Source of the DNA: Bacilli bacterium
GTDB taxonomy: Bacteria > Bacillota_I > Bacilli_A > RFN20 > CAG-826
NCBI GenBank assembly: GCA_017442875.1
Contig: JAFSPN010000030.1
Location: forward strand, 1-52,049
Reading direction: 5' to 3'
DNA length: 52,049 nt
Positions within the stretch are counted from its first letter, which is position 1. Each line of letters opens with the position of its first letter. A program made the position numbers and the translations under genes. Below the pieces are notes generated by a model that made no database searches, had not been told where the DNA came from, and was given only the letters and a program-made list of their open reading frames with translations. This document shows, piece after piece, positions 35,673 through 51,675 of this stretch.

Positions 35673-35685
35673 AATGATTCACCTA

Positions 35686-38600: not shown

Positions 38601-38760
38601 AATAGAACTGACTGACATTTTGAGCGGCGGTTTCGGCATTTTTAGTAGCGCTTATGCCTGAGATAACAGTGCCGACAACCAAAATAACTAAAGTGATGAT
38701 TCCGCCTATCAAAGCCAATAATCTAATTCTTCTATTATTATTGCGTGTTTTCATAACCAT
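35686..38760 (-). CDS. Hybrid sensor histidine kinase (2 TM, Cache-like, HisKA, HATPase, two REC)
   Basis: SHEIRTPMN, NAVKFT, DTGIG, GLGLAI, DWKMP and DVRMP receivers. Confidence 0.93.
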   Translation of the reverse strand: MVMKTRNNNRRIRLLALIGGIITLVILVVGTVISGISATKNAETAAQNVSQFYLTELVSRRGEVVINNLNDRKENLETALSIMSDEDLSSLENFQEYQRRIKTLYTLEKFAFVDEADTIYTSQGQQSNISEYQFDHTLTDVQVSIFNITSSEKKVVIASPTSKMFGSNHLTVCFMEINMDEMLRGVSVTSDNPEKAMTFCNIYTSDGVALTDTVLGGLSSDKNLFDALKTAKYGQGYSYASIYDDFHSGKNGIVSFTFNNIGETLAYSPIEGTNWILTYLIRDERVGNLINSTSTVILINSLIVSIVTTIVLIMMFIFIIRQLNKNAKMRLENETIAVKQNELEQRLSLQEQLLEQDKEKGQQSKLITALSSDYWSVYYIELDKNSGVCYQEHADLDERLKVGEKFDYLKTFNDYANKYVIEKYREEFIKFIQPENIKNGLKNNYVISFRYVVSRHDRETYEMIRFAGVRHPEDRDDHIVHAVGACFSNIDEETRTSIAQKEMLSDALASAEQANKAKTIFLSNMSHEIRTPMNAIIGLNNIALNDASISLKTRDYLTKIGASAEHLLNLINDILDMSRIESGRMVLKNEEFSFSKLLEYINSMFSEQCQINGLEYSCQIEGLIDDFYIGDNMRLRQILINILGNAVKFTNRGGKISFIVSKKAEFEDKAALQFVVKDTGIGMSKEFLPKIFDSFSQENASVANKFGSSGLGLAITKNIVEMMNGTIVVESEKNKGSTFTVVITLKKSDSNQSHDEDVDVNNLSVLIVDDDQVALEHAKLALSEIGVSVELANSGLEAIEKVKLHHARQTPYNLILVDWKMPEMDGVETTKAIRSVIGNESAIIILTAYKWDEVLDDAVKAGVDSFIAKPLFASSVIEEFKNALIRKGIRVSKETTIDLQGKHILVAEDIEINAEIMQTILEDKGIVVDLAENGKIAVEKFINSEEGYYSAILMDVRMPEMDGLEATRIIRKTNRKDAKLPIIALTANAFDEDVQRSLQAGLDAHLTKPIQTKLLFETLKRLIK

Positions 38761-38791
38761 TATTATTTTTATTATAATAATAGAATCATAC

Positions 38792-38837
38792 TTTCACAAT
38801 TGCCCCAGTAAAAATCAATACTAATTTTCACAATTGC
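38792..38837. promoter_or_regulatory. Direct repeat TTTCACAATTGC x2 (34-bp period) in a divergent promoter
   Basis: Exact 12-mers at 38792 and 38826, each preceded by AATCA(A)TAC; TATAAT on minus strand at 38771-38776. Confidence 0.5.
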
Positions 38838-38927
38838 ACCAACAATATTTAAAATAACCATCAATCAATACTTGCCGATGTGGGGGGCTTCTTGCTAAAA
38901 TGCGTTAAAAATAGATGGGGAAAATAC

Positions 38928-39629
38928 ATGGAACAGGAGACTAAAAAGATTAAAAGATTAAAAGTTGGAGATTGGCTTCTAATTACCTTTGTCTTTGGCT
39001 TAATTTTTACTTGTGGACTTATTATCGTTAGTGAAATCACCTGGGATGCGATATGGAATAACGTTGTCAGTCGAGATCAAACCTTAACTAGAGAGATAGT
39101 AGAATCGTTCTTTAGAGCGGCATTATTAGAAGAAACTTTTAAATTCTTAGGTTTCTTTATCGCTTATAAATTAAAAAAGATTAACCATCAAGCCATAGCG
39201 ATGTATGCTTGTGCGGTTATTGGTCTAATGTATGGTATCGTTGAAAACATCTTTAGATTTAATCCAATTTCATTCGTGGTCGCTTTCTCGATACCGATGC
39301 ATGTTTTATGGCAGCTAAATTCAGGCCGCCATTTCCAAGCTTTTATAGAAGCAAAAGAAGAAGGCAATAAAGGAAAAGCATTTAAAGAGTTCTTTTTAGC
39401 CTTACCATTTGTCTTTTTATTCCATGGAATATGGGACGCTGTTTTAAGCGTTGGTATCCATTTCATGGAAGATCCAAACTATGGATATATTTCCCCAATT
39501 TGTTTTATCTTTATTTTCGCCATCGGTATTGCATATGTCATATTCACCATCATAAAAACTATTAAAACAACAAATAAATATAGACGTGATATAAGAGAAG
39601 AGGATTTGGAGAACCATCAAGAAAAGTAG
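38928..39629 (+). CDS. PrsW-family intramembrane metalloprotease
   Basis: LEETFK, G..EN, PMH..W, HGIWD motifs; start MEQET at 38928. Confidence 0.8.
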   Translation: MEQETKKIKRLKVGDWLLITFVFGLIFTCGLIIVSEITWDAIWNNVVSRDQTLTREIVESFFRAALLEETFKFLGFFIAYKLKKINHQAIAMYACAVIGLMYGIVENIFRFNPISFVVAFSIPMHVLWQLNSGRHFQAFIEAKEEGNKGKAFKEFFLALPFVFLFHGIWDAVLSVGIHFMEDPNYGYISPICFIFIFAIGIAYVIFTIIKTIKTTNKYRRDIREEDLENHQEK

Positions 39630-39752
39630 GCGTCAAATTATTTAAAGCTGATAATTTCTTTGATGATGAAGCAATTGCTAACTATTTAACTACCACTAAT
39701 TAAACAAAAACATATTATATTTATTAACATTTGTTTGCGTGCTATGCTCACA

Positions 39753-39784
39753 AAAAAAGATGTCCATAAAAATGGCATCTTTTT
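39753..39784. terminator. Intrinsic terminator
   Basis: AAAAAAGATG(T)CCA...TGGCATCTTTTT hairpin. Confidence 0.6.
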
Positions 39785-39823
39785 ACATTGAAATAAAAGC
39801 AATGTTTGTTAAAATACTCTTGA

Positions 39824-41761
39824 ATGAACCAAACACCATTTAAGCCTTTTTCGGCCACTCTACACTGCAATTATTTCTTAGAAGTCTGTGCCCTCATCTT
39901 CCTGGTCGCTATTACTATCGCCTATTTTACTCGTAAGAAATATCCAGTTGCCACTGCTAGGCTATTTGGTGTTGGATTATTGATATTAATACTCAATGTT
40001 TCTTTAGACATTTTATTTTGTTTTTTATTAGATCGTTCTAACGTCGTTCCTCTTTATTGGATAGAGTTTGTAGCAGAACTATTCTTTAGCACACAATTTG
40101 CTATTTCTTATTCTTTATTTGCCTATGTTTTTTATGCCGTTGGTAAATCGCTTAAATATTCACCAATATATCTACTAACCATAATTCCTAGTGCACTAGG
40201 TGCGGTGTTGTTTTTCACAAACTGTCTCCACCACTGGAACTTTAGTTTTGTTTTTAATAATGAGACGAGTTTATATGACTTTGTTCCTGGTCCGACATTT
40301 ATGTCGCTATATGTTATCAACTGGGGTCTTAATCTTTCGGCAACAGTGGCCTACACAATAGCCTTTAGGAAAAAATTACCAAAAGAAATATTAAAGATTC
40401 TATTTTCCTTTTTGTTTATCGTTGCCATTGCCGCGACCATTCAAACCATTCAGCCTCAATACCTATTATCGGGCACAGCCTTTACTTTATGCGCGATGCT
40501 CGCAGTGGCCACGGTGTGCGATCCTGATATCAAAGTGGACCGCGTCTCCAAAGCTTTTAATGATTATGCTTTTATTGACTATGTCAATACACAAAGATAT
40601 GAAAAGCAAAGAAAACACTATATTATCTTTGATATTGAAAGTTTTGGGATGTTTTCCGAAAAGTTTGGTGTCGCTACCGCAAACGAACTCATTTATAACA
40701 TTAGAAAATTCATTGAAAGCGTTAATAAAAAATCCTATATCTTTAGAGTGCAGCAAGCGCGTTTTATCATCTTGCTCAGAAACAAAGAAGAACAACTGCA
40801 AATGATTGAAGCTATTAACAACCGCTTCAATGAATCCTTTGGCATCAAAGGCAATGTTCTTAACATCACTCTCCATATTCTCTATTTTGTAAATGACAAT
40901 GTCTTCACTAATAGTGACATGTATAACAACTTCATCAACAGAACATTATCTGTGATTAATTTTAAAGAAAGCGGTTGTGTCGAATTAGATCAAGATTTCT
41001 TAAAACAAATTAATCGCGACCGCCGCATTAAGGAAATCTTAGAAGAATGTTTGAAAACCGGTAAAGGCTTATATATGGTCTATCAGCCAATCTATGATTT
41101 AAAGGCCGAAAAATTCAATCATTTCGAATCGTTGATTAGGCTTTCTAATGAAGAATTAGGCCACATCGGACCAGCCGAATTTATTCCAATCGCTGAAATC
41201 TTTGGTTTGGCCAATGATATCGATTTCTTTGTTTTAAATGAAACATGCGCTTTTTTACAAAGAAATCCAGAAATCAATAATTTAGAAATCAATATTTCTT
41301 GTGCGGAGTTTTTTAATAACCCGAGCGAAAGATTTATGAAAATTATTAATAAATACGGTGTTGATCCTTCAAGAATTATTCTAGAAATCACTGAAACAAT
41401 CGCTGTTAAATATCCAAGCAAAACAAAAGACTTTATGGCGGATTTAGGTCAATATGGTGTGAAATTTGCCATGGATGACTTCGGCAGTGGCTATTCTAAT
41501 ATCGCTAGATTTATCACTCTTCCGTTCAGTGTCGCTAAGCTTGATAAATCATTGTTAGAAGAGCAAGAAAATGTCGCCATCTTCTTTGATGCGGCTATTA
41601 ATTTATTTAAGAATTTAAACATCCCAATTGTTGTGGAAGGTGTGGAAGTTGAAAAGCAATTAGAGCTCGCTAAAAAGAAACAGATTGATTATGTGCAAGG
41701 CTACTACTTCTCTGAGCCATTAAGAGAAAAAGATTTGTTAGAATTCCTTGCCAAAAATTAA
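39824..41761 (+). CDS. Membrane-bound (about 7 TM) degenerate-GGDEF / EAL phosphodiesterase
   Basis: Hydrophobic N-terminus; GGDEF replaced by QQARF; ESLIRL, LEITE, DDFGSGYSN, EGVE, QGYYFS. Confidence 0.88.
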   Translation: MNQTPFKPFSATLHCNYFLEVCALIFLVAITIAYFTRKKYPVATARLFGVGLLILILNVSLDILFCFLLDRSNVVPLYWIEFVAELFFSTQFAISYSLFAYVFYAVGKSLKYSPIYLLTIIPSALGAVLFFTNCLHHWNFSFVFNNETSLYDFVPGPTFMSLYVINWGLNLSATVAYTIAFRKKLPKEILKILFSFLFIVAIAATIQTIQPQYLLSGTAFTLCAMLAVATVCDPDIKVDRVSKAFNDYAFIDYVNTQRYEKQRKHYIIFDIESFGMFSEKFGVATANELIYNIRKFIESVNKKSYIFRVQQARFIILLRNKEEQLQMIEAINNRFNESFGIKGNVLNITLHILYFVNDNVFTNSDMYNNFINRTLSVINFKESGCVELDQDFLKQINRDRRIKEILEECLKTGKGLYMVYQPIYDLKAEKFNHFESLIRLSNEELGHIGPAEFIPIAEIFGLANDIDFFVLNETCAFLQRNPEINNLEINISCAEFFNNPSERFMKIINKYGVDPSRIILEITETIAVKYPSKTKDFMADLGQYGVKFAMDDFGSGYSNIARFITLPFSVAKLDKSLLEEQENVAIFFDAAINLFKNLNIPIVVEGVEVEKQLELAKKKQIDYVQGYYFSEPLREKDLLEFLAKN

Positions 41762-41781: not shown

Positions 41782-42822
41782 TTATTTGCGGTAATACATC
41801 GCGTCTTTATATGAACCTATTTTAATAATGATATCGGCTTTTAAAAGTTTAGATAACTCCATTTCAATCAAACGTTCGCTGACATCCGGTAGTTGATCTT
41901 GAATAGTTTTCTTAGAAACTGGGACAAAAGCGTTAAGCAAAAGGTTTTTGATTCTTTCTGATTTCGACATTTTTTTATCAATCTGTGAAAACACGTTTTC
42001 ATCTAATTTGGTATAGCATTCATACAAGATTTGAATCATATAGATGATAAATGGCTCATAATCGTTTTTGTTTTCATGCCACCTATAAGAAGAGGCCTGA
42101 AGCGTTCTATAATATTCGCCTTTGTTTTCGTTAATCATATTTTCAATTGATATAAATCTTCCGATATCAAAACCAGATTTATAAAGAAGTAACAAAGTCA
42201 ATAATCTAGACATTCTTCCATTGCCATCATCGAAAGGGTGAATACAAAGAAAATCTAAAATAAAACATGGTATTAATAGCAAAGGGTTAATGTTTTGATT
42301 GTTTAAAGCGGAGGAAAACGCCAAAAGAGCTTGGTCTAGCGATTCTTCAACTTCTTTAGGAGGAGTAGGAACAAAAACAACAGATTGCTTACCATTCTTT
42401 CTTTCGCTAATAACATTAGGTTCTGTTTTAAATTTACCTCTACTATCTTCTTTTGCTATATCTAGTAGTTGTCTATGTAATGACAAAATAGACGTCTTAT
42501 CAAAAATAATTGTATCGTGATAGGTGTGTATATCATTTAAGACATTTCTGTAGCCGATAATCTCTTCTTCGGAATGGGTAATGGCGTTATTATCGCCAGA
42601 AGCGATTTCATCAATACGTTTTTCTGTAGTATGGATGTTTTCAATGGCGTTACTACCTCTGATTGAATCGCGAATAGCCCTGTTTTTTAGCTTGTTGAAA
42701 AGATTGGGGTTATTCGCTAACCTAACACTTTCTTTGCCTTTAATATCATAAATACTCGAGACGAAGTTTAAGATTTTAGATGACACTTTATCTTCTAAAA
42801 ACGAATAATCAAATTTTCTCAT
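41782..42822 (-). CDS. Fic family protein with canonical motif and C-terminal wHTH
   Basis: SNAIEN, HPFDDGNGRMSR; start MRKFDY at 42822. Confidence 0.9.
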   Translation of the reverse strand: MRKFDYSFLEDKVSSKILNFVSSIYDIKGKESVRLANNPNLFNKLKNRAIRDSIRGSNAIENIHTTEKRIDEIASGDNNAITHSEEEIIGYRNVLNDIHTYHDTIIFDKTSILSLHRQLLDIAKEDSRGKFKTEPNVISERKNGKQSVVFVPTPPKEVEESLDQALLAFSSALNNQNINPLLLIPCFILDFLCIHPFDDGNGRMSRLLTLLLLYKSGFDIGRFISIENMINENKGEYYRTLQASSYRWHENKNDYEPFIIYMIQILYECYTKLDENVFSQIDKKMSKSERIKNLLLNAFVPVSKKTIQDQLPDVSERLIEMELSKLLKADIIIKIGSYKDAMYYRK

Positions 42823-42900
42823 CAAACATTTTCCTTTACTACACAAATTATACTATGTTTTGTGCAGTATTTGAAGAAGATTGTGCAGTAAAATGTTATT

Positions 42901-44136
42901 TTATTCTTTGTCAGGATTATATAGTTTGAATAGTTCCTCGCACGCTAAAGACATCTTAGTAACGGAGAACTTTTCACACTTAGGATAAACATAGAATGTA
43001 TCGTTTAAAGTATTTAAATCTACACAGTCACCAAATTTATGGAGGTATTCATATTCAATATGAACACTATAATGGTCTTTGGCTAATAGCACTACTTCAT
43101 AATCTTCATCTTTATATCGACCAGTTAGTTTAAAACCATTCATATCGTGTACTAGTTTGCCCATCCCTAAATCAATATATCCTTTAGCGTTAGGTAAAGC
43201 ATCCACTCTAACTGGACATTCAAAATGGTATTTGCCACTTTCGACTTCTTTTCTGACATTACTTCTTTCCCATTCATACCAATCTGGGATATGTGGGAAT
43301 TCAGTTTCACCTTCTAAAGCATGCAGTTCACAGTGTTCATCCATTTCATATGTCTTACCACAGTGATTGCATTTTAAATAAATACCATTAGAGGACATTT
43401 CATATTCTGTTCCACAGTGTGGGCATTGATATAAGACTTTATGTAATCCTTCTGCACGATATGTTTCTTTAACTAAAATACCTTTTTCTTTAATCCAAGC
43501 ATAGTCATCATATTCTAAAGCTTCTTGAAGTCTCCTGTTTAATTCTTCAACAGGTAACTTCTCCACTTCTTCTTTAGTGGCGATACACTTTAAAGTGGCT
43601 TCTAAGCCTTTAATCTTTTTTCTTCTCGTATTATAAAATGGTTCCACAATGTGATCACCATGTGTAGTTAAAGTTACTAAAGGCACTTTAAACATTTTCG
43701 CTAGAGCAGCATTGCTCTTAGGGATAATCGATTTAGTGCCACATAAGGAATATCTAGCCTCTGGATAGATAACCATGATATCCCCGTTTTTAATCACGGT
43801 TTTAATTTGTCTTAATAAATTAACATCGTTAGTGAATTTTCTTTTGCAGATGCCCCCTATGGAGCGGAGTAACCATTCTCTACCGATAAAGCCATCTATG
43901 GCTACAACATAATTACATCTATTAGGCAAAATCGCTTGTTCAAGCACCATTAAATCGTAATAGGAATTATGATTCCCCATTAAGATGTATGGAGGTTTGA
44001 TACCTTCCATATTTTCTTTATGAATAATCTGCCCTTGCTTGCGCGTTGTTAAAGGGGCAATGATTTTCATCAAGAAACGAAGTTTCTGCCTCGTAGGAGG
44101 CTTTTTCATATCAAAACGCTTAACGTTATCAAGCAT
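42901..44136 (-). CDS. PlsC-like lysophospholipid acyltransferase, paralogue of 27753-29006
   Basis: NHNSYYD, KRKFTND, YPEARYS, LYQCPHCGTE, HIEY motifs shared with the other copy. Confidence 0.82.
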   Translation of the reverse strand: MLDNVKRFDMKKPPTRQKLRFLMKIIAPLTTRKQGQIIHKENMEGIKPPYILMGNHNSYYDLMVLEQAILPNRCNYVVAIDGFIGREWLLRSIGGICKRKFTNDVNLLRQIKTVIKNGDIMVIYPEARYSLCGTKSIIPKSNAALAKMFKVPLVTLTTHGDHIVEPFYNTRRKKIKGLEATLKCIATKEEVEKLPVEELNRRLQEALEYDDYAWIKEKGILVKETYRAEGLHKVLYQCPHCGTEYEMSSNGIYLKCNHCGKTYEMDEHCELHALEGETEFPHIPDWYEWERSNVRKEVESGKYHFECPVRVDALPNAKGYIDLGMGKLVHDMNGFKLTGRYKDEDYEVVLLAKDHYSVHIEYEYLHKFGDCVDLNTLNDTFYVYPKCEKFSVTKMSLACEELFKLYNPDKE

Positions 44137-44144
44137 AGTAAAGG

Positions 44145-44249
44145 TTACGGAACGTCATCATTGATCTCATCAATATCGGTGGACCCAGTAATGATGTCTT
44201 CATTATCCAATATAATAATAATTAATTCAGGTGCTTCGAATTTTTTCAT
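44145..44249 (-). CDS. Unannotated 34-aa acidic micropeptide MKKFEAPELIIIILDNEDIITGSTDIDEINDDVP
   Basis: Fills the gap 18 nt after the nuclease stop; homologous to the 47073-47204 peptide. Confidence 0.8.
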   Translation of the reverse strand: MKKFEAPELIIIILDNEDIITGSTDIDEINDDVP

Positions 44250-44267
44250 ATCTCTAATATTTTCTCA

Positions 44268-46973
44268 CTAGTGAGGCGTAGATAAAAGAGTTAATGCTTT
44301 GTTTGACAAGGTGGAACCACCATTAGTGAGATAATCACTCGCCAAAGAATTAACAGAGAAAACAATGTCATCTAAGAAATAGTATTCATCATCCACGACA
44401 ATGAATGGGGCTGCATGATAAACGACATCATAGTTACTTTCGCTTGTCATGTTCATCTTAACGGTGAACGCATAATTATCTTCATCAATAGAAGCAGGAT
44501 CCCTATATGTATTAACTCTAGAAATCTTTAGTGTCTTATCTGCTCTATAGGCATCTTCGACAGAAGAAACGCCATATGTATTAATTAGTGTATTTTCTTT
44601 AACAATCATCGTTCCGTAATCAGAAATACCGTATTCATCACGAATACCGTTCCAATCAGTCTTAGGAATAGACATACCAAACCTAACAGCGGGACTAATT
44701 ACAGAAGATACTGTTATTGTAATAGCGGTAAATCTAATTTGTGTGTTATCGCTATTGGAATTAGTAAATTTAATTGAATAAGCATTACCTGTCCAAACAC
44801 CATTAGATAATGTACCAGTAGATGCGGTTAATCCACTAGCGTAATTATTGGTATAAGATATCTCAATTCTAGTAATCACTTTTGTGGATGCGATTGTAAG
44901 TGAATTAGCTTTGTATAAACGAGCATTTTTACCATTGTTGTAGTATTTTGGCTGGTTAGATCCCGTCTCTTTGGAGAATGTCAGAGAGCTATATGCCAAA
45001 TCAATTGTCGTTAATTCGGACGCATCTGCTAAACCTGCGTTAGCAAAAACAATTGTGTCCTCATCATCTCTTGTATCAGTGCCTTCCGCTGCCAAAAGTT
45101 CGGTATATGGTAAAGCATTATCGAGACAATCATCAAGATTTGGCCCTGGTACTACTGGTTCTGTAACGGATTTAATAACTGGTGATATGTTATTAGCTTT
45201 AGCTATTTCATATTTAGTGTTGTTATAGTACATGCCATAGCCATAAGCCACTACTTCTTTACCAACCATTGAATTAGCGGTACCGTATGCGTTTTTAATA
45301 TCATTACTCGCGATAATTCTAAATAACTGTAAGGCTTGTGATGTACTTCCATTATTATTTTGTAGCCAAATGTCGTCATAGTTGTTGTATGTTGTGTTAT
45401 AAGCACTATTGCTAGTAACAATGCCTTTGACATACATTTGTTCTGCGGTAGCATTTGAACCAGTAATAGATATCAAATCAATAGCATCATCCACGGTTAA
45501 TGGGTTTTCTAATGTCCCATAATTCAATGGTTCGGTAACAGTAATTAAACAAGTAAGGCTATCACCACCACTTGTCGCTGTAATGGTTGCTGACCCACCC
45601 TTTAAAGCGGTAATAGTTACCACATCGTTATTATCAGTGCTGTTCTTATCTAAACTAGCGACTGTATTATCATCAATAGACCAAGTAATGTTGCTAGTAG
45701 CGTTACTACCATATATTTCCGCTGTATCACCAACCTCAAGTTCAAATGAACTTTGTGAAATAGAAAAAGTATCAGCGGCAAATGTATTAATTGGATCTGT
45801 TGCTGGAGAAGCGCTCTTTGTAGGAGTTGGATTATAGTTACCATTCTCTGATGTTCCCCATATAGCGTCAGCCCAACTCGGGAAATCAATAAATGGATTT
45901 CTATTACCTGTAAAGTTGTTATAGCAAAGATTATTTCTATGAATTTCAAATTGATCTGGTGGATCAAGTCTATTCCATTCAAGTAAGTCTTGGAGAATAC
46001 CTATCTTTCCTGTTTTAGTGGTTGTTGAATCATAACCAGTACCTGTATATGACGATAAGTTGTTGACTAGTTCTAGATTTGGATTGTCTTGATCGATACC
46101 ATCACTATCACTTCCCGAAAGATAGTTATATCTAGCAACCATATAGAAACATGCTCTAGCGATATCGCCTTTATCACAGTCCTGTGGTTCAAATACTTTT
46201 GTAGTTCCCCCTAGTGTTTTAGAAAGACCTAAAAGATTACCAGCGCATTCAACTGTATCAGTTACTTCATCATCATATGATTTGGTTTTATCAACATAAC
46301 CATAATAAAAATCTTTGTGCTTGTTGTTGGTGTGACCATGTGCCGCCCAGAGATGCATAATATCTCCTCTAGCGCCACCACCACCAGGTTCAGTATTAAA
46401 ACCAGAACCCTTAGGCCAAATATGTTCTCTATTTATACCTGTAGGATTATTGATGCTATTACCATGATCACCATATGCTTGAGCAACAGGTTCTCTGTTT
46501 CTATTGTAATAAAGTGCATGTAAATATGGGTTTTCGTATTTAGCTGAATTACCACCCCATTTATAGTTCTCTATCTTATTTGTGGATTGATTATATGTTC
46601 CCGCGGCTGCTGGCAAAGCAGTTACTGGAGACTTAACCCAATCTCTATCGACAATGCAATAGACATCCCAAATGTCTTTTCCATTATTGGAATCGTAAGA
46701 TAAATATTTTTGGCCATTCTTAAGAATAGATTTTAAGTTCTTTAAAAGATTAGTACCTTGTCTTTCAGAAGCATCGTAAGAATTAAGAGAGGAATAATAA
46801 TTCCTAATTTGCTCAGGAGTATTATCATTTAAGTCAATTGTGCTTGGTAAAGCAGTTGTGCTATATGCATTAACTTCACTAGCTCTTTTATTGAGCACAG
46901 TATATAAACTTGCATTCAACGCAAAAACAGATGATAAAGCAACTATTTTGAATAAAACACTCTTCTTGCTCAT
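44268..46973 (-). CDS. Secreted endonuclease I (EndA/Bsn His-Me finger) with Big_2, OB-like, jelly-roll and conserved C-terminal domains
   Basis: Signal peptide; NREHIWP, KGDIARACFYMVARY, WNRLDPP, GNRNPFIDFP. Confidence 0.88.
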   Translation of the reverse strand: MSKKSVLFKIVALSSVFALNASLYTVLNKRASEVNAYSTTALPSTIDLNDNTPEQIRNYYSSLNSYDASERQGTNLLKNLKSILKNGQKYLSYDSNNGKDIWDVYCIVDRDWVKSPVTALPAAAGTYNQSTNKIENYKWGGNSAKYENPYLHALYYNRNREPVAQAYGDHGNSINNPTGINREHIWPKGSGFNTEPGGGGARGDIMHLWAAHGHTNNKHKDFYYGYVDKTKSYDDEVTDTVECAGNLLGLSKTLGGTTKVFEPQDCDKGDIARACFYMVARYNYLSGSDSDGIDQDNPNLELVNNLSSYTGTGYDSTTTKTGKIGILQDLLEWNRLDPPDQFEIHRNNLCYNNFTGNRNPFIDFPSWADAIWGTSENGNYNPTPTKSASPATDPINTFAADTFSISQSSFELEVGDTAEIYGSNATSNITWSIDDNTVASLDKNSTDNNDVVTITALKGGSATITATSGGDSLTCLITVTEPLNYGTLENPLTVDDAIDLISITGSNATAEQMYVKGIVTSNSAYNTTYNNYDDIWLQNNNGSTSQALQLFRIIASNDIKNAYGTANSMVGKEVVAYGYGMYYNNTKYEIAKANNISPVIKSVTEPVVPGPNLDDCLDNALPYTELLAAEGTDTRDDEDTIVFANAGLADASELTTIDLAYSSLTFSKETGSNQPKYYNNGKNARLYKANSLTIASTKVITRIEISYTNNYASGLTASTGTLSNGVWTGNAYSIKFTNSNSDNTQIRFTAITITVSSVISPAVRFGMSIPKTDWNGIRDEYGISDYGTMIVKENTLINTYGVSSVEDAYRADKTLKISRVNTYRDPASIDEDNYAFTVKMNMTSESNYDVVYHAAPFIVVDDEYYFLDDIVFSVNSLASDYLTNGGSTLSNKALTLLSTPH

Positions 46974-46981
46974 GCTAAATA

Positions 46982-47010
46982 ATAATATTAGTTTTATTTA
47001 AATAATTCAA
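46982..47010 (-). promoter_or_regulatory. Sigma-A-like promoter of the nuclease gene (probably leaderless)
   Basis: TTGAAT-17-TATTAT, 8 nt before the ATG, no SD. Confidence 0.5.
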
Positions 47011-47013
47011 TTT

Positions 47014-47040
47014 AAAAAAGGCGGTATGAAAACCGCCTTT
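47014..47040 (-). terminator. Intrinsic terminator after the micropeptide
   Basis: AAAGGCGGT-tttcat-ACCGCCTTTTTT on the minus strand. Confidence 0.85.
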
Positions 47041-47072
47041 GATAATAAAATGGATGCAATTAATGGACGATT

Positions 47073-47204
47073 CTAGAGAATACCGCCTGGATATTCAACA
47101 TCCTCGCCTTCGATATCGCCTTCACCACTTGTGAGGATAATTTCATCATCAAGGAATTCGACGATGATTAATTCTGGTTTTAAAAATTTCTTTTCGTTAC
47201 TCAT
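47073..47204 (-). CDS. Unannotated 43-aa acidic micropeptide MSNEKKFLKPELIIVEFLDDEIILTSGEGDIEGEDVEYPGGIL
   Basis: Perfect SD AAGGAGGT (47211-47218) overlapping the upstream stop; followed by a terminator; paralogue at 44145. Confidence 0.88.
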   Translation of the reverse strand: MSNEKKFLKPELIIVEFLDDEIILTSGEGDIEGEDVEYPGGIL

Positions 47205-47216
47205 ATAGATACCTCC

Positions 47217-49829
47217 TTAATGAGCGGTTTTCAAGTAGTCCAAAGCATCGTTTGATAAATTTGAACCACCATTAGCGCGATAATATGTGGCTAAAGAATT
47301 AACGGATTCGTGTTTTTCTTCACCCAAGAAATAATATGTATCGTTAACTACGATGAAAGGAGCGGCACAAATAACGTCGCCATAGTAACCTGCTGGAATA
47401 CTAACTTTAATTGTGAATAAATAATTATCACCATCAAGATATGGAGCATCTCCAGAGCCTTTATGCTTAATTGTGACTGGTTTTGATGGATTGGATTCAA
47501 AAGCCGCTTTAACCGAGGAAACACCATAACCATTCAATGTTTCTTCCTTAAGGAACATCACACCATAATCAGTAATTTCCCAATCTGGATGTTCAATGTT
47601 GTTGTTAATTGCGTCCCAATCGGATTTTGCTATGGAGGCACCGAATCTAAGAACCACTCCATCTACTGAGCATGAACCTTCTGTGTAATCGACAGAAATG
47701 GCAGTGATTTTAATTTGACCATTTCCATCATTGCTGCTGTTCATTGTAATAGTCTGACTACTAGCATTGACAGACAATGCTGTATCACTAGTAATTGATG
47801 GCGTGAATGTAGGATTTTTGCTTGTACTAAAGGTCAATGTAATAGAATTGATAGTTACTCCAGCTCCGCCAGTAAATGTTATTGAGGCATCGCTTTCGTT
47901 TTTTGTTCCATAAACACGTATATCAGAACCATTCGACCAATAACTGGCTGTATTTCCGATTCCACTAAAACTAACAGTTATATTTGAATCAAGATTAAAA
48001 TTATCAAACACTGTGCCAATGCTTGATCCAGCAGACGCTGTCCAACCATTTGCTGTTGCCAACTCTGCTGAAGTCTTGGTGACTGTTACTTCATTAGCAA
48101 GATGTTCAGTTCCATGAATTGTTGCAACAGATGTAGCATGAGTTAAATATGAACCTGGGTTTGTAATTGCTTCAGATGTATATTTTGCATAAAGATTTAG
48201 ATTACTTGTGACTGGATCAGAATCATCAAATTCATCCGTTAAGTCTTGATTTGTATACCATCCTTCAAATGTATATGTATAAGAGGCATCGGCTGGCTTT
48301 GATGGATTAGCCGGCATTAAAACAGTATCGCCTTCATCAACTTCTTGGCTAGCAATAGAGTTGCCACCGTTGGTGTTAAATGTGACGATATAGTAATTTG
48401 TTTCATTATACTTTGCATAAACAGTTATGTTGCCATTAACAGGAGTAGATGATGTAAATCTATTTCCTTCTTCAAAGACAATATTGTTTGGATCGTCAAC
48501 TGTATACCATCCAGCGAATTCAAATTTCTTTTGGTTCACTGTATCCTTAACTTTTGTTGTTGTTGGTAATGTTTCAATGCATGTGCCTTTTTTGACATTA
48601 CCAATTGGACTTACTTCTGATCCGCCCAAACTATCAAAAGTAACAGTATATCTAGGTGCAGGAGTATATGTAACTAATTGGTTATCTTGTGCAAATTCGT
48701 ATGTTGAATTATATTTTGTGAGATTACCATGGACAACAACGGTTGCGCCAACTTCAATATCATCCTCGCTAGTGAATGCTTCGCCATTGAAACTCTTTCC
48801 TCTGTAAGCCTGGAATTGTTCTGATTCTGTTGAACCGTCTGAACTAATATTATAAGAAATGTTGCCATATTCGGAATTGTATGGAGTGACAATTTCAGAA
48901 ACAATACCTGTCACATATTTATCCGATAAATCGCTTCCTAAATCAATTTTATCCTTAGCTTCTTCAACCGTGTATGGGCTGGCTTTTGTTCCGGTGTGTT
49001 GAATATCAACTACTTGAATAGAAATATGAACATCGGCCGCAGTTGAGTAAGATGCGGTAATTGTTGCAGTTCCTCTTCCTTCGCCAGTTGCAGTAATTGA
49101 AGTTCCGGTTTCGGCACTAATAGAGACAACGTCGGAATCGCTTGTTGTCCAAGAAACGCTTCCGCTTCCACCGTTAGCTGTCGCGGTTAATAACTGCGTG
49201 CCATTCTTTGCAATCTTTGCGGATGTTGGACTAACGCTTAAAGATGGACCACTGTTTTGATAGTAGTAATCAATCTTAGAAACTTGAACAATCCCGTTTT
49301 TAGTATATGAGGCGCAATCAAATTCGGCTTTGTAATACTTATTTGCCGTTGGCGATGATATTGTGGCCGCTTGAGCGCCGGTTGCAACGGTGAAAGAACT
49401 TTCTAAGGCCCAAGAAGAGCCGTTAGTAGATGAATAGAGTTTGATAGAATTGACTTTTGAAGTGTCTAAAATGCTATCAATAGTCACAGCGACTTTTGTA
49501 ACTGCTACATCGATTGCGGCCGAAGTTGTTATCGTTGCAACTGAAGCGTTATTCTTTCTACCACACTTGATGTAATCCCATGCCTTAGCATAGTTATTAA
49601 AATTTGAAGTAGCAACAGAAAAGCCGTTAGCTGTATAGGTTGCAGGATCGGTGTAACTATTTACCGAATCTTCTGTGTTCGATGCCAAAAAAGTAATTGA
49701 CTTATAAACTTCTTCGCCAGCGCTTAATCCCGTCGCCGCTCTATTATTCGCAGCAACGCCAACACCTACACCTACAGCCATTGCTAAGCCAAGTGTTACG
49801 CCAATAAGTTTTGTGAATATTTTTTTCAT
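47217..49829 (-). CDS. Secreted multidomain surface protein (jelly-roll, Big_2, OB-like, two InlB B-repeats, jelly-roll, conserved C-terminal domain)
   Basis: Signal peptide, SD AAGGAG; GTKASPYTVEEA...YVTGIV OB-like start; two VTF...GG...F.GWY...YAKY repeats; C-terminus homologous to the nuclease. Confidence 0.8.
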   Translation of the reverse strand: MKKIFTKLIGVTLGLAMAVGVGVGVAANNRAATGLSAGEEVYKSITFLASNTEDSVNSYTDPATYTANGFSVATSNFNNYAKAWDYIKCGRKNNASVATITTSAAIDVAVTKVAVTIDSILDTSKVNSIKLYSSTNGSSWALESSFTVATGAQAATISSPTANKYYKAEFDCASYTKNGIVQVSKIDYYYQNSGPSLSVSPTSAKIAKNGTQLLTATANGGSGSVSWTTSDSDVVSISAETGTSITATGEGRGTATITASYSTAADVHISIQVVDIQHTGTKASPYTVEEAKDKIDLGSDLSDKYVTGIVSEIVTPYNSEYGNISYNISSDGSTESEQFQAYRGKSFNGEAFTSEDDIEVGATVVVHGNLTKYNSTYEFAQDNQLVTYTPAPRYTVTFDSLGGSEVSPIGNVKKGTCIETLPTTTKVKDTVNQKKFEFAGWYTVDDPNNIVFEEGNRFTSSTPVNGNITVYAKYNETNYYIVTFNTNGGNSIASQEVDEGDTVLMPANPSKPADASYTYTFEGWYTNQDLTDEFDDSDPVTSNLNLYAKYTSEAITNPGSYLTHATSVATIHGTEHLANEVTVTKTSAELATANGWTASAGSSIGTVFDNFNLDSNITVSFSGIGNTASYWSNGSDIRVYGTKNESDASITFTGGAGVTINSITLTFSTSKNPTFTPSITSDTALSVNASSQTITMNSSNDGNGQIKITAISVDYTEGSCSVDGVVLRFGASIAKSDWDAINNNIEHPDWEITDYGVMFLKEETLNGYGVSSVKAAFESNPSKPVTIKHKGSGDAPYLDGDNYLFTIKVSIPAGYYGDVICAAPFIVVNDTYYFLGEEKHESVNSLATYYRANGGSNLSNDALDYLKTAH

Positions 49830-49864
49830 AAATATTTCTCCTTATTTTTCTTTTCCTTTCTTTA

Positions 49865-49913
49865 AAAATTAGAAATGGGTATGAAGTCTTTGTTTGTTAC
49901 TTTCCATACCCAC
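49865..49913 (-). terminator. Riboswitch expression-platform terminator
   Basis: GUGGGUAUG...CAUACCCAU followed by UUCUAAUUUUU; the 5' arm GUGGGUA is complementary to the aptamer P1 3' strand UACUCAC. Confidence 0.8.
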
Positions 49914-49946
49914 CGAATAATAATTAAATACTAATTTATTATTTTG

Positions 49947-50009
49947 TGAGTAGTATAGCGGTAATGGGGCTATGTAGAGACGGCCAACCATACTATGACC
50001 ATATACTCA
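49947..50009 (-). ncRNA. Purine riboswitch aptamer, guanine-type core (U47/U51/C74)
   Basis: P1 UGAGUA/UACUCA; P2 GGUCA/UGGCC with loop UAGUAUGGU; J2/3 GUCUCUAC; P3 AUAGC/GCUAU with loop CCCAUUACC (UGG-CCA kissing); J3/1 AC. Confidence 0.85.
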
Positions 50010-50021
50010 ATTTCTTTGAAA

Positions 50022-50050
50022 ATTATAGTTGATTTACTTTTATATATCAA
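50022..50050 (-). promoter_or_regulatory. Sigma-A promoter upstream of the riboswitch
   Basis: TTGATA (50050-50045) - 17 bp - TATAAT (50027-50022). Confidence 0.8.
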
Positions 50051-50102: not shown

Positions 50103-50134
50103 AAAAAAAGACCAAGATTGTTAGTCCTGGTCTT
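50103..50134 (-). terminator. Intrinsic terminator of the DUF2971 gene
   Basis: AAGACCAGGA...TCTTGGTCTTTTTTT on the minus strand. Confidence 0.7.
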
Positions 50135-51059
50135 ATATTTTTTCAGGAGTCAATCCGTACTCTCCATCTTTCTTCTTCATCTTGTATGTAGGAGCATCGG
50201 TCATCCTCTTGATTTTGTTCGTAAATGCGTCTGTAGCATTACATCCAACATACACCGCCTTAATTGGCGGCATCTCTAAAAGAAGCTTCTTTTTCCACTT
50301 TTTACCCACTTTCTTAATTTTAGGATCTAACTTTTTAATCGAATATACACATCTAATTTCTCCCTCGTATATCCAATCTTCAGATTTGGTCAGCAACGGT
50401 TTGTTCATGAAATCATATTCTTCGTTGTTGAAATCAATTTCTTCTCCAACAAATTCGTGCCCAAATAATATTTCTAGAGTGTCGTGTAATCTAAAATCAG
50501 GCATCTGTTTGCTATACTCAACAGTTTTAAAATCCTTGTCTTCTATTTCAAATTCTATACAAACTCCTTTGTGCATATTGGCATAGTGAGACCACATAAG
50601 AATTGAATCAAACGATGAGCCAAAACAAGAAATTACAACCCGCTTTCTAAGTTTGCTAAAAGAATCCTTCATAACTTGTTTGAACTCTTTCTTTAAAACA
50701 GGCATAGTTTTTCCAAGGTGTTTACATATCAATGGGCGACATGGTTTTAAATATGCTTGTAAAATGTACTTTTTAGTCTTTTTAATTTCAGAACCAGCCA
50801 CTGGTAAGTATTTTTTAAAAGTTTCAGCCAAAGACTTGAACCTCTTTGCTTTTAAATCGTGTCTTACAAAATAATCATACATTCCTTTAAACAATTGATA
50901 GTTTAAGAAAAGTTCAAATGAACGGCTGCTTTCTTCATCACTAACATTTCCCTCGCAGTCAAAAGGATCGTTGTATTTTAAAGGAATGTTTAGAAGAACA
51001 GAATTGTTTTTAATGGTGGCTAGCCCACCTTTTTCGTCTAGATATTTGTAAATAATCAT
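50133..51059 (-). CDS. DUF2971 domain protein
   Basis: IYKY, YNDPFD, SCF...LMWSHYANMHKGVCIEF, KSEDWIYEGEIR. Confidence 0.82.
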   Translation of the reverse strand: MIIYKYLDEKGGLATIKNNSVLLNIPLKYNDPFDCEGNVSDEESSRSFELFLNYQLFKGMYDYFVRHDLKAKRFKSLAETFKKYLPVAGSEIKKTKKYILQAYLKPCRPLICKHLGKTMPVLKKEFKQVMKDSFSKLRKRVVISCFGSSFDSILMWSHYANMHKGVCIEFEIEDKDFKTVEYSKQMPDFRLHDTLEILFGHEFVGEEIDFNNEEYDFMNKPLLTKSEDWIYEGEIRCVYSIKKLDPKIKKVGKKWKKKLLLEMPPIKAVYVGCNATDAFTNKIKRMTDAPTYKMKKKDGEYGLTPEKI

Positions 51060-51068
51060 ATTTTTAAA

Positions 51069-51110
51069 TCAGCAAAAACAGCAGATGCATGTATCGCTTT
51101 TTCTACCCAT
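51069..51110 (-). pseudogene. Possible 5' stub of a deleted HEPN (DUF86) toxin gene
   Basis: ATG overlapping the MNT stop gives MGRKSDTCICCFC*, at the position a HEPN partner normally occupies. Confidence 0.3.
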
Positions 51111-51675
51111 AGATCTTGATCCCATCTTTTAGAATCTCATTAACTAATTCAATGTTGCTTTCTAGTTCACTACTTCTAAGAAGGTCTACTTTTTTATGTA
51201 AGGTCTGCCTTATTTTTTCTATGAGGCCCACAAATCGCAAACCAGTTAAAGATGATGAGATATATAAATCTACATCACTGTTTTCTTTCGCTAACCCTTT
51301 AGCGTAACTACCAAACAAATAGCAAAAATCGATTGAATCAGAATATTCATTATCAAATAGTTCGGTTAATGTTTGCTTTATCCTTTCAATAGTGAGCAAA
51401 CCCTTTTCTTCAGTAATCTCATATTTGTCTTTCAATAGATTGATGAACATTGCGCGTTTAAAACCACTACCATATTGTTCATCTAGTTCATACCTTCTAA
51501 ATGTACGAACAGGAACGCCCACTATTGAAGCGGCTTCACTTTGCGATAGACCATAACAAATTCTAATTTCTTTCAGAGACATGGTATTTATCCTTGTCAA
51601 TATCCTATCATTTTTGTCCTCTTTAGTAAAGATATTGAGGCCATTTTGTCCTCTTATAATTTGTTCTAAGGTCAT
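51103..51675 (-). CDS. XRE-HTH fused to a minimal nucleotidyltransferase (MNT antitoxin-like)
   Basis: LKEIR...LSQSEAASIVGVPVRTFRRYE HTH; FGSYAKG...SDVDL and VDLL MNT motifs; start 51675 or 51582. Confidence 0.85.
   Translation of the reverse strand: MTLEQIIRGQNGLNIFTKEDKNDRILTRINTMSLKEIRICYGLSQSEAASIVGVPVRTFRRYELDEQYGSGFKRAMFINLLKDKYEITEEKGLLTIERIKQTLTELFDNEYSDSIDFCYLFGSYAKGLAKENSDVDLYISSSLTGLRFVGLIEKIRQTLHKKVDLLRSSELESNIELVNEILKDGIKIYG

What the first reader, a model, noticed from the sequence alone, without database searches (positions are those of the whole stretch)
44145..49829. Repeated two-gene module: secreted protein with a shared C-terminal domain plus its own downstream acidic micropeptide
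Seen: two otherwise different secreted proteins (901-aa endonuclease I, 870-aa non-catalytic protein) end in a clearly homologous ~140-aa domain. Each is immediately followed by a homologous small ORF missed by the ORF track: MKKFEAPELIIIILDNEDIITGS-acidic tail (44145-44249) and MSNEKKFLKPELIIVEFLDDEIILTS-acidic tail (47073-47204, perfect SD, terminator right after). The 1:1 pairing occurs twice, and neither peptide type nor domain appears with the lipoproteins elsewhere in the window. Inference: peptide and C-terminal domain form one system. The peptide could supply a beta-strand that completes or chaperones the domain, or act as an anchoring/sorting partner, since neither protein has LPxTG, SLH, a lipobox or a C-terminal TM helix. 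I know of no described system matching this.
Basis: partly seen in the sequence, partly recalled or inferred. Interest (0 to 1): 0.85.

Follow-up and report, generated by a model that had tools for sequence, protein, structure and literature searches.

The report
Phosphopeptide precursors paired with surface proteins
The two small ORFs are precursor peptides of a recently described phosphorylated-peptide (LPP) pathway, and throughout an order of apparently wall-less gut and rumen bacteria such a peptide gene sits directly behind a secreted protein whose tail domain is predicted to grip the peptide's end, which gives a testable clue to what these peptides are for.

Summary
Two secreted proteins (901 and 870 aa) share a C-terminal domain (CTD), and each is followed 13-19 nt later by a homologous small ORF.

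The system is not undescribed. The small ORFs have the make-up of LppA precursors of Linear Polyphosphorylated Peptides, a RiPP family published in May 2026. The rest of the pathway lies on another contig of the same genome, in the published order: kinase-like protein, PqqD/RRE, SipW-type peptidase, ABC exporter, NTP transferase. In 11 of 12 sister species with the cassette it lies directly downstream of the same [CTD protein + peptide] arrays.

What is new is the pairing. A family peptide follows:
- 20 of 31 CTD genes in close relatives,
- 11 of 11 in metagenome contigs,
- 18 of 21 in other families of the order.

15 of 16 CTD-bearing genomes carry the kinase-like gene, against 13 of 135 others, usually on another contig.

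One complex prediction supports binding (0.65, best control 0.02). It places the variable C-terminal end of the peptide on the CTD, not the conserved leader.

My reading is that exported LPP cores are ligands of this domain. Binding, phosphorylation and biological role are all untested.

The parts
50022..50050 (-). Promoter-like site upstream of gene B (11 of 12 consensus positions). A terminator-like hairpin at 50134-50108 precedes it.
   Evidence: Consensus match only.
47217..49829 (-). Gene B: an 870-aa secreted protein. It has an N-terminal hydrophobic segment, no lipobox and no LPxTG. It carries Flg_new repeats, a middle region shared with A, and a shared C-terminal region of about 300 aa.
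47220..47702 (-). C-terminal domain (CTD) of B: an Ig/FnIII-like sandwich with helices, in no Pfam family. It is the predicted docking site for the C-terminal end of pepB.
   Evidence: Profile match 1.8e-56. Complex prediction. The fold comes from the models of A's domain.
47073..47204 (-). pepB: a 43-aa LppA-type precursor. It has a leader with an FxxP motif, the family's invariant Ser at residue 26, and a 17-residue acidic core behind it that ends in hydrophobic residues.
47017..47040 (-). Intrinsic-terminator-like hairpin plus T run, ending the B-pepB unit.
46982..47010 (-). Promoter-like site (9 of 12) upstream of gene A.
   Evidence: Weak consensus match only.
44268..46973 (-). Gene A: a 901-aa secreted protein with Endonuclease_1, Big_2 and the shared C-terminal region.
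44271..44714 (-). C-terminal domain (CTD) of A.
   Evidence: Profile match 1.0e-53. AlphaFold2 models with pLDDT 90.7 and 88.0.
44145..44249 (-). pepA: a 34-aa LppA-type precursor. It has FxxP, the invariant Ser at residue 23 and an 11-residue acidic core. It has no SD-like motif. Its stop lies 8 nt before the start of the next gene, an acyltransferase at 42901-44136.

Best explanation
pepA and pepB are ribosomal precursor peptides of the LPP (Linear Polyphosphorylated Peptide) RiPP pathway.

Inferred by analogy with the published system:
- The conserved N-terminal leader, with its (F/Y)xxP motif, is bound by the discrete PqqD-type RRE.
- The invariant Ser, 19 residues after the aromatic residue, is phosphorylated by the P-loop kinase-like protein.
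- The leader is removed by the SipW-type peptidase.
- The short acidic core is exported by the ABC pump.

In this genome these genes lie on contig C17. In sister species they lie directly behind the same modules.

Inferred from adjacency, co-occurrence and one structure prediction: outside the cell, the core docks by its last ~10 residues onto the Ig-like C-terminal domain of the secreted protein encoded just upstream. Each [secreted protein + peptide] pair would then be a receptor-ligand pair. The most likely purpose is to hold or regulate secreted nucleases and adhesin-like proteins at the surface of a cell that has no wall, no sortase and no other visible anchor for them. That purpose is the least certain step.
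For: Cassette.
- This is the A-K-B-S-D-N order of the lpp cluster in PMC13381572 (sections 6 and 7 read).
- No B2 protease was found. The only Asn-synthase-like ORFs are 347 and 349 aa and lie 57 kb away.

Leader.
- Pro and Ser are invariant in 22 of 22 peptides. The aromatic residue is F in 18 and Y in 4.
- The Ser lies at aromatic+19. The published motif places the phosphorylated Ser3 at Tyr+18 (sections 6-8).

Linkage.
- In 11 of the 12 same-genus genomes that have the kinase-like gene, it lies on the same contig just downstream of the CTD-peptide array.

Pairing.
- 20 of 31 CTD matches are followed by a peptide hit, and 22 of 37 peptide hits lie within 350 nt behind a CTD match.
- 11 of 11 metagenome loci are followed by a peptide. 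Two pairs of those loci carry identical peptides.
- 18 of 21 CTD ORFs in other families of the order are followed by a peptide.

Co-occurrence.
- In 151 genomes of the order, 15 of 16 with the CTD have the kinase-like gene, against 13 of 135 without it. Fisher p = 3e-12, but related genomes are not independent.
- The two are mostly on different contigs. The one exception is a genome that is 65% complete.

Binding.
- The complex prediction scored 0.65 (runs 0.65, 0.67, 0.63); the best of 3 controls scored 0.02.
- That mark was reached by 58 of 80 solved complexes and 2 of 110 mismatched pairs. These counts hold only roughly, because my own alignments were used.
- The runs agree in at least 30% of contacts. 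The partner's pLDDT is at least 46.
- The contacts involve peptide residues 33-39 and 41-43.

Core constraint.
- In 9 close homologues of pepB, 12 of the 17 residues behind the invariant Ser never change. The leader varies at residues 13-24 and takes a 2-residue insertion.

No wall.
- No PBP transpeptidase and no sortase were found in the 95%-complete genome.
Against: - The kinase assignment is weak by sequence. Hpr_kinase_C scores 12.6 bits against a cut-off of 33.3. PDB HprK chains score only E 0.018-0.18, behind generic P-loop hits.
- Beyond aromatic-xxP and the Ser, the published leader consensus is not matched. The genus mostly has Phe where the published RRE fixes a Tyr by a hydrogen bond (section 8).
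- Phosphorylation, cleavage and export are not shown for any of these peptides.
- Binding rests on one prediction. It used my own unpaired alignments, and the peptide's pLDDT was 46-47. It could not model phosphate. No cognate-versus-non-cognate comparison was possible.
- The CTD is net acidic (11 K+R against 19-20 D+E), like the peptides.
- None of the predicted interface positions is invariant or nearly invariant in the CTD alignment.
- 11 of 31 CTD matches have no peptide of their own.
- Peptides also occur between lipoprotein genes that show no CTD: hhalign probability 0.8%.
- Adjacency alone would also follow from simple co-transcription.
Confidence: 0.5

Rival explanations
1. The peptides are LppA-type precursors, but the neighbourhood is only regulatory. 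They ride on the transcripts of abundant surface-protein genes. The mature LPP acts elsewhere, for example as an antimicrobial, a signal or a matrix component, and never touches the C-terminal domain.
For: - The LPP assignment rests and the paper.
- 11 of 31 CTD genes lack a peptide, and 15 of 37 peptide hits are not behind a CTD match.
- The peptides also occur between lipoprotein genes that have no detectable CTD.
- The paper suggests a link to capsule or biofilm and names no protein partner (section 12).
Against: - The complex prediction passes clearly (0.65, best control 0.02).
- The CTD is nearly confined to genomes with the cassette even where the two are on different contigs (15 of 16).
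- The pairing persists across several families of the order (18 of 21). Over that range gene order is otherwise not expected to hold.
- The core is conserved within an orthologous group but differs between paralogues.
Confidence: 0.3
2. The acidic, polyphosphorylated core mimics nucleic acid. It keeps the secreted endonuclease and its DNA-binding partner inactive or protected until they are released, acting as an inhibitor or immunity ligand rather than a tether.
For: - A is an Endonuclease I protein. 4 of 9 CTD representatives scanned carry Endonuclease_1.
- The cores are rich in Asp and Glu and would carry phosphate.
- A and B share a middle region with a faint OB-fold match (E 0.095).
Against: - The predicted contacts are on the CTD, not on the nuclease domain. 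However, only the last 300 aa were given to the model.
- B and many other CTD proteins have no nuclease domain.
Confidence: 0.07
3. One reading: the conserved N-terminal strand of the peptide completes or chaperones the fold of the C-terminal domain.
For: - The conserved stretch is strand-like.
- The two genes are adjacent.
Against: - The CTD folds confidently on its own (pLDDT 88.0 and 90.7).
- None of the confident predicted contacts (expected error under 8 A) involves peptide residues 1-32; a residue that is not listed is uncertain, not shown to be free.
- That stretch fits the RRE-binding leader, which the published pathway removes (sections 7, 8 and 11 of PMC13381572).
- The same leader occurs on peptides with no CTD gene nearby.
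Confidence: 0.05
4. The peptides are lasso-peptide precursors of the paeninodin type.
For: - The leader type is similar, and some members have Thr two residues before a Gly.
- A kinase and an NTP transferase are typical of Bacillota lasso clusters (PMC7533575, passages read).
Against: - No B2 protease was found in the genome.
- No full-length cyclase was found. The only Asn-synthase-like ORFs are 347 and 349 aa and lie 57 kb away.
- The cores lack a consistent Gly1 with Asp or Glu at positions 7-9. Several are only 11-13 residues long.
Confidence: 0.02

Closest known systems
LPP (Linear Polyphosphorylated Peptide) RiPP clusters, lppA-K-B-S-D-N, of Paenibacillus alginolyticus and other Bacillota (Popov et al., Nat Commun 2026, PMC13381572; sections 6, 7, 8, 11 and 12 read)
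   Same: - Same gene set and gene order.
- Discrete PqqD-type RRE, SipW-type leader peptidase, MsbA-like pump and PF14907 NTP transferase.
- No cyclase.
- Several precursors per cluster, each with a conserved leader carrying aromatic-xxP, a Ser about 18-19 residues further on, and a variable C-terminus.
   Different: - The leader consensus differs beyond aromatic-xxP and the Ser. In this genus it is mostly Phe, not Tyr.
- The cores are much shorter (about 11-27 residues, against 45).
- The host has a reduced genome and is apparently wall-less.
- Each precursor gene sits behind a secreted protein with a dedicated C-terminal domain, or between lipoprotein genes.
- The paper's main text does not contain the words secreted, surface or lipoprotein. 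It reports capsule loci and lasso clusters as the neighbours. Its supplementary tables could not be seen.
Paeninodin / pseudomycoidin-type lasso peptide clusters of Bacillota
   Same: - RRE-dependent leader recognition through (Y/W)xxP.
- An HprK-like kinase and an NTP transferase act as tailoring enzymes (PMC7533575 passages; PMC13381572 section 6).
   Different: - No cyclase and no B2 protease were found here.
- The cores do not fit a macrolactam ring.
Non-covalent surface-anchoring modules of Gram-positive proteins, such as SLH, CWB2, choline-binding and GW modules, and tail-binding domains such as PDZ (recalled, not tested here)
   Same: - Works alike in one respect. A C-terminal module shared by otherwise different secreted proteins would hold them through a separately made anionic ligand.
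- The ligand is predicted to be gripped by its C-terminal tail.
   Different: - No sequence or fold membership. Pfam gives no hit, and the best PDB fold match has E 0.02 to FnIII domains.
- The ligand here would be a ribosomal peptide, not a wall polymer.

Membership tests
LPP RiPP cluster | Archaeal-type (SipW-like) signal peptidase I in the cluster | tested here: met
   The 143-aa ORF at L031 7511-7942 scores 56.3 bits with TIGR02228 (cut-off 51.85) and also matches Peptidase_S24.
LPP RiPP cluster | Discrete RRE (PqqD-like) gene | tested here: met
   The 96-aa ORF scores 45.8 bits with PF05402 (cut-off 23.4). It has no sequence match in the PDB copy. I recognised none of the chains of the paper's 9x8z and 9x90 entries among the hits.
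LPP RiPP cluster | HprK-like kinase | tested here: inconclusive
   - A 239-aa P-loop protein sits in the kinase position. Its P-loop residues are invariant in 10 orthologues.
- Hpr_kinase_C scores only 12.6 bits against a cut-off of 33.3.
- PDB HprK chains score E 0.018-0.18, behind generic P-loop hits.
- The nearest named Atlas clusters are ScmC (score 0.98). I recall ScmC being described as HprK-related.
LPP RiPP cluster | Uncharacterised NTP transferase and MsbA-like exporter | tested here: met
   PF14907 scores 137.4 bits. The exporter has ABC_membrane plus ABC_tran. MsbA-related NCBIfam models match at E 1e-47 to 1e-51 but below their equivalog cut-offs.
LPP RiPP cluster | Gene order A-K-B-S-D-N, without cyclase or B2 protease | tested here: met
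   The order holds in G000 contig C17 and in the six clusters of related genomes laid out. There is no PF13471 match. The Asn-synthase-like ORFs are 347 and 349 aa and lie 57 kb away.
LPP RiPP cluster | Precursor with a conserved leader carrying (Y/W)xxP, a Ser acceptor shortly after the cleavage site, and a variable C-terminus | tested here: met
   Pro and Ser are invariant in 22 of 22. The aromatic residue is F in 18 and Y in 4. The Ser lies at aromatic+19, against Tyr+18 in the published motif. The C-termini cannot be aligned with each other. The leaders in other families of the order are mostly Y-type.
LPP RiPP cluster | Full published leader consensus YxxPxVLxHQxIxFETxxS | tested here: not met
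   Only the aromatic residue, the Pro and the Ser correspond. The stretch between them differs (against section 6 of the paper). So this is a divergent branch, not the published subgroup.
LPP RiPP cluster | Polyphosphorylation of the core Ser and RRE-dependent leader cleavage | not testable with these tools
   This needs expression and mass spectrometry.
Lasso peptides | Macrolactam cyclase, B2 protease and a core with Gly/Ala/Ser/Cys at position 1 and Asp/Glu at positions 7-9 | tested here: not met
Sortase / LPXTG or lipoprotein anchoring of A and B | LPxTG motif with a sortase, or a lipobox Cys | tested here: not met
   A and B have no LPxTG and no Cys before residue 89. The genome has no sortase match.

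The most novel reading that the evidence does not exclude
LPP peptides are not antibiotics or free signals. They are made-to-measure ligands for a dedicated receptor domain. In wall-less Bacilli of gut and rumen, each secreted nuclease or adhesin-like protein carries an Ig-like C-terminal domain that grips the C-terminal tail of its own exported, polyphosphorylated peptide. The same domain may also grip the similar tails of small Ser-rich lipoproteins encoded next door. Together these would form a ribosomally encoded tethering or release system for surface proteins. This would be the first function for the LPP family, and the first RiPP acting as a structural adaptor.
Probability: 0.22. Interest if true: 0.85.

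Novelty: new variant of a known kind. Interest (0 to 1): 0.65.

Why it matters
The LPP family was described only in 2026, and its authors state that its biological role is unknown. In the bacteria studied here the precursors are bound into a conserved module with a specific, uncharacterised domain on secreted proteins. That module co-occurs with the pathway even where the genes are unlinked. A structure prediction also names a concrete interface.

This turns 'what are LPPs for?' into a bench experiment: a CTD, a synthetic core peptide, and a tail truncation. It also bears on how bacteria with no wall, no sortase and no lipid anchor on these proteins keep nucleases and adhesin-like proteins at their surface.

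If the binding is not confirmed, two results still stand. The finding extends the LPP family to a divergent, Phe-type leader branch with several precursors encoded away from the cassette. It also defines a new C-terminal domain family of at least 777 representative proteins.

Tried and rejected
- Pfam and NCBIfam gave no family for the peptides or the CTD.
- Lasso peptide precursors were considered first, because of the leader, and rejected.
- Foldseek against the PDB gave only generic sandwich matches, both for the two-domain model and for the CTD alone. The best CTD match was E 0.02 with TM 0.38 to an FnIII domain.
- PDB sequence searches with the PqqD protein and with the peptide profile gave only chance-level hits.
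- A profile-profile comparison of the CTD with the 587-aa lipoprotein family next to the third peptide gave probability 0.8%.
- The protein atlas gave only unnamed Bacillota clusters for the CTD.
- The search for related loci in genome contigs found nothing with the CTD of A.
- A search of the 5.8-billion protein set with pepB gave 9 hits, all 76-100% identical and unnamed.
- Earlier notes of this scan showed nothing for this place or sequence. One look-up failed on a word limit.
- Expression: no RNA holder was listed for window 44000-50000.
- A by-eye look for co-variation between CTD interface residues and core tails was only suggestive. B and its nearest paralogue group share interface residues and a similar core. 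Shared descent cannot be excluded, so no claim is made.
- Not done: a cognate-versus-non-cognate complex matrix, because only one job was allowed.
- Not seen: the supplementary tables of PMC13381572. They may list these taxa or their gene neighbours.
Full report
**What is in the window**

On the minus strand lie gene B (47217-49829, 870 aa) and gene A (44268-46973, 901 aa). Each is followed by a small ORF: pepB (47073-47204, 43 aa) and pepA (44145-44249, 34 aa).

- A carries Endonuclease_1 and Big_2. B carries Flg_new repeats.
- The two proteins align over about 300 C-terminal residues (35% identity, E 4e-32) and over a further 172-residue stretch.
- The last ~140 residues are the part conserved in relatives.
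- The peptides share 16 of 28 residues.
- Consensus scans suggest two units. The first is a promoter-like site, B, pepB and a terminator-like hairpin at 47040-47017. The second is a weaker promoter-like site, A and pepA, running on into an acyltransferase gene.
- Neither protein has LPxTG, a lipobox Cys or a second hydrophobic segment.
- Within the window and the rest of the genome, a tblastn search finds no further copy of the domain.

**The small ORFs are genes**

I collected 22 members from relatives.

- Pro and one Ser are invariant.
- The Ser is written with AGT or AGC 13 times and with TCN 9 times. That is hard to explain without selection on the amino acid.
- F, D and K at conserved positions use both of their synonymous codons.
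- 19 of 22 have an SD-like motif.

**What the peptides are**

Pfam and NCBIfam give nothing for them. A search for RiPP machinery in the laid genome found a PqqD gene on contig C17. Around it, all in one direction, lie:

- a third peptide of the family
- a 239-aa P-loop protein
- PqqD
- an ABC exporter
- an NTP_transf_5 protein

A literature search led to PMC13381572, of which I read sections 6, 7, 8, 11 and 12. It describes Linear Polyphosphorylated Peptides (LPPs).

- The clusters are lppA-K-B-S-D-N and have no cyclase.
- The precursors have a conserved leader with a YxxP motif that the RRE binds.
- The kinase polyphosphorylates Ser3 of the core.
- A SipW-like peptidase removes the leader.
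- The role is unknown.

Gene set and gene order match. The invariant Ser here lies 19 residues after the aromatic residue, against 18 in the published motif.

Three things do not match. The kinase is only weakly HprK-like by sequence. The rest of the leader consensus differs. This genus mostly has Phe in place of Tyr. I therefore file the peptides as a divergent branch of LppA precursors. Lasso peptides are excluded.

**The window module is a detached part of one cluster**

In 41 relatives, the kinase-like gene is present in 12 of 22 genomes of the same genus. In 11 of these it lies on the same contig, directly behind an array of one to three [CTD protein + peptide] genes. In the window's genome and in one other, the array and the cassette are on different contigs.

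**How strong the pairing is**

- In the 41 relatives, 20 of 31 CTD matches are followed by a peptide hit, and 22 of 37 peptide hits lie within 350 nt behind a CTD match.
- Four more peptide hits turn out to be behind CTD genes once the CTD profile is used.
- The CTD genes without a peptide are mostly the second and third genes of arrays with a more divergent CTD type.
- In metagenome contigs, 11 of 11 CTD loci have the peptide. Two pairs of those loci carry identical peptides. The cassette follows in 6 of the 11 loci.
- In a separate sample of 151 genomes of the order, the CTD profile hits 16 genomes in six families.
- I fetched 20 of these places. 21 CTD ORFs were found in them, and 18 have a family peptide directly downstream. 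The script counted 19, but one of those was a spurious hit with E 0.48 in L073.
- In the same 151 genomes, the kinase-like gene is present in 15 of the 16 CTD-bearing genomes and in 13 of the other 135. It is usually on another contig.
- The single exception is 65% complete.
- Related genomes are not independent, so the p-value of 3e-12 overstates the case. Even so, the pattern does not depend on physical linkage.

**Peptides also occur without the CTD**

A second recurrent setting is [128-aa lipoprotein, peptide, 400-590-aa lipoprotein]. It occurs in five genomes, including contig C17 of this one. A few peptides follow other secreted proteins. The peptide family is therefore wider than the CTD. 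The CTD is nearly confined to genomes that have the pathway.

**The domain**

- AlphaFold2 gives confident models (pLDDT 90.7 for the last 300 aa, 88.0 for the last 160). They show a sandwich domain followed by the CTD, which is an Ig/FnIII-like sandwich with inserted helices.
- Neither model has a specific match in the PDB.
- The CTD has no Pfam family, and its nearest Atlas clusters are unnamed.
- A profile search of 1.84 billion representatives finds 777 proteins. In the 150 listed, the match lies almost always at the very C-terminus, and most of them are 600-1300 aa long.
- Of 9 scanned, 4 carry Endonuclease_1, and the others carry Big_2, Big_3 or Flg_new.

**Does the peptide bind the domain?**

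I had one complex job. I gave it the last 300 aa of B with pepB, each with its own alignment.

- Score 0.65 (runs 0.65, 0.67, 0.63); best of three controls 0.02.
- The mark was reached by 58 of 80 solved complexes and 2 of 110 mismatched pairs. These counts hold only roughly, because my own alignments were used.
- The runs agree in at least 30% of contacts.
- The peptide's pLDDT is only 46-47.
- No similar solved complex is known to me, so a pass from memory is unlikely.

The confident contacts join CTD residues with peptide residues 33-39 and 41-43. That is the end of the variable core, not the leader. This fits a scheme in which the leader is removed inside the cell and the exported core meets the secreted protein outside.

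In 9 close homologues of pepB, 12 of the 17 residues behind the invariant Ser never change, while leader residues 13-24 vary. The core is therefore constrained within a lineage and different between paralogues, as expected of a specific ligand.

Several points count against binding:

- The CTD is net acidic, like the peptides.
- None of the predicted interface positions is invariant or nearly invariant in the CTD alignment.
- Phosphate could not be modelled.
- No non-cognate pair could be tested.

**Why it might matter to the cell**

The 95%-complete, 1.32-Mb genome shows no PBP transpeptidase and no sortase. Record titles of relatives name only uncultured Bacilli, Bacillales or Erysipelotrichaceae from rumen-type samples. 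Secreted proteins without a lipid anchor would need some other way to stay at the surface.

A lead noticed late bears on this. In seven places in other families, a small Ser-rich lipoprotein follows the peptide gene or, in one place that has no peptide, the CTD gene. It ends in a conserved tail of hydrophobic residue, Pro, then aromatic or hydrophobic residues. That tail resembles the ends of many cores. It could be a membrane tether for the same domain. This is untested.

**Verdict**

- The claim that no described system matches is superseded.
- The link between an LPP precursor and a dedicated domain on secreted proteins is real, conserved across an order, and does not appear in the main text of the one paper on the family.
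- My confidence in the LppA assignment is about 0.85.
- My confidence that the core binds the CTD is about 0.5.
- My confidence in a tethering role is about 0.2.

Noticed in passing
L067 533-799, L068 592-813, L076 927-1157, L078 654-926, L079 743-979, L080 about 722-997, L033 5552-5788: In other families of the order, a small (73-91 aa) Ser/Thr/Glu-rich lipoprotein follows the peptide gene or, in L076, where no peptide was found, the CTD gene. It ends in a conserved tail: acidic or hydrophobic residue, L/F, P, then an aromatic or hydrophobic residue. The tail resembles many core ends. It may be a membrane tether for the same domain.
   Followed up: partly
Own genome contig C17, locus L031 8978-12026 (minus strand): A third family peptide (10680-10817) lies between a 128-aa Flg_new-like lipoprotein and a 587-aa lipoprotein, directly upstream of the K-B-S-D-N cassette. 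A membrane-anchored C39-like peptidase (221 aa) lies just upstream. The same lipoprotein-peptide-lipoprotein trio recurs in four other genomes.
   Followed up: partly
G006 contig C25 (locus L041): A 94%-complete genome of the genus has the lipoprotein-peptide-lipoprotein trio, but no kinase-like gene and no CTD were found with these queries. It may be an orphan precursor or an assembly gap.
   Followed up: no
Whole genome G000: No PBP transpeptidase (PF00905) and no sortase (PF04203) were found in a 95%-complete, 1.32-Mb genome of 36.5% G+C. This is consistent with a wall-less, Mollicutes-like lifestyle that uses genetic code 11.
   Followed up: partly
window 33978-41761: A dense c-di-GMP and two-component block for so small a genome. 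It holds a response regulator with GGDEF and EAL, a 1024-aa hybrid histidine kinase with two receiver domains, and a membrane protein with GGDEF and EAL.
   Followed up: no
window 41782-42846 and 50133-51675: The module is flanked by a Fic/DOC protein on one side. On the other side lie a DUF2971 protein and a Polbeta-type nucleotidyltransferase of the kind found in toxin-antitoxin or defence contexts. Such flanks may mark the place where the array was separated from its cassette.
   Followed up: no
Own genome contig C17 19242-21352 (locus L084 743-2853): Two tandem 347- and 349-aa proteins have only the synthetase half of asparagine synthase (46-47 bits, far below the AsnB cut-off). They lie 57 kb from the cassette, and their role is unknown.
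   Followed up: partly
G034 contig C95 and G128 contig C37: The kinase-like genes here carry one in-frame stop each (TGA and TAA). They may be decaying cassettes or sequencing errors.
   Followed up: no
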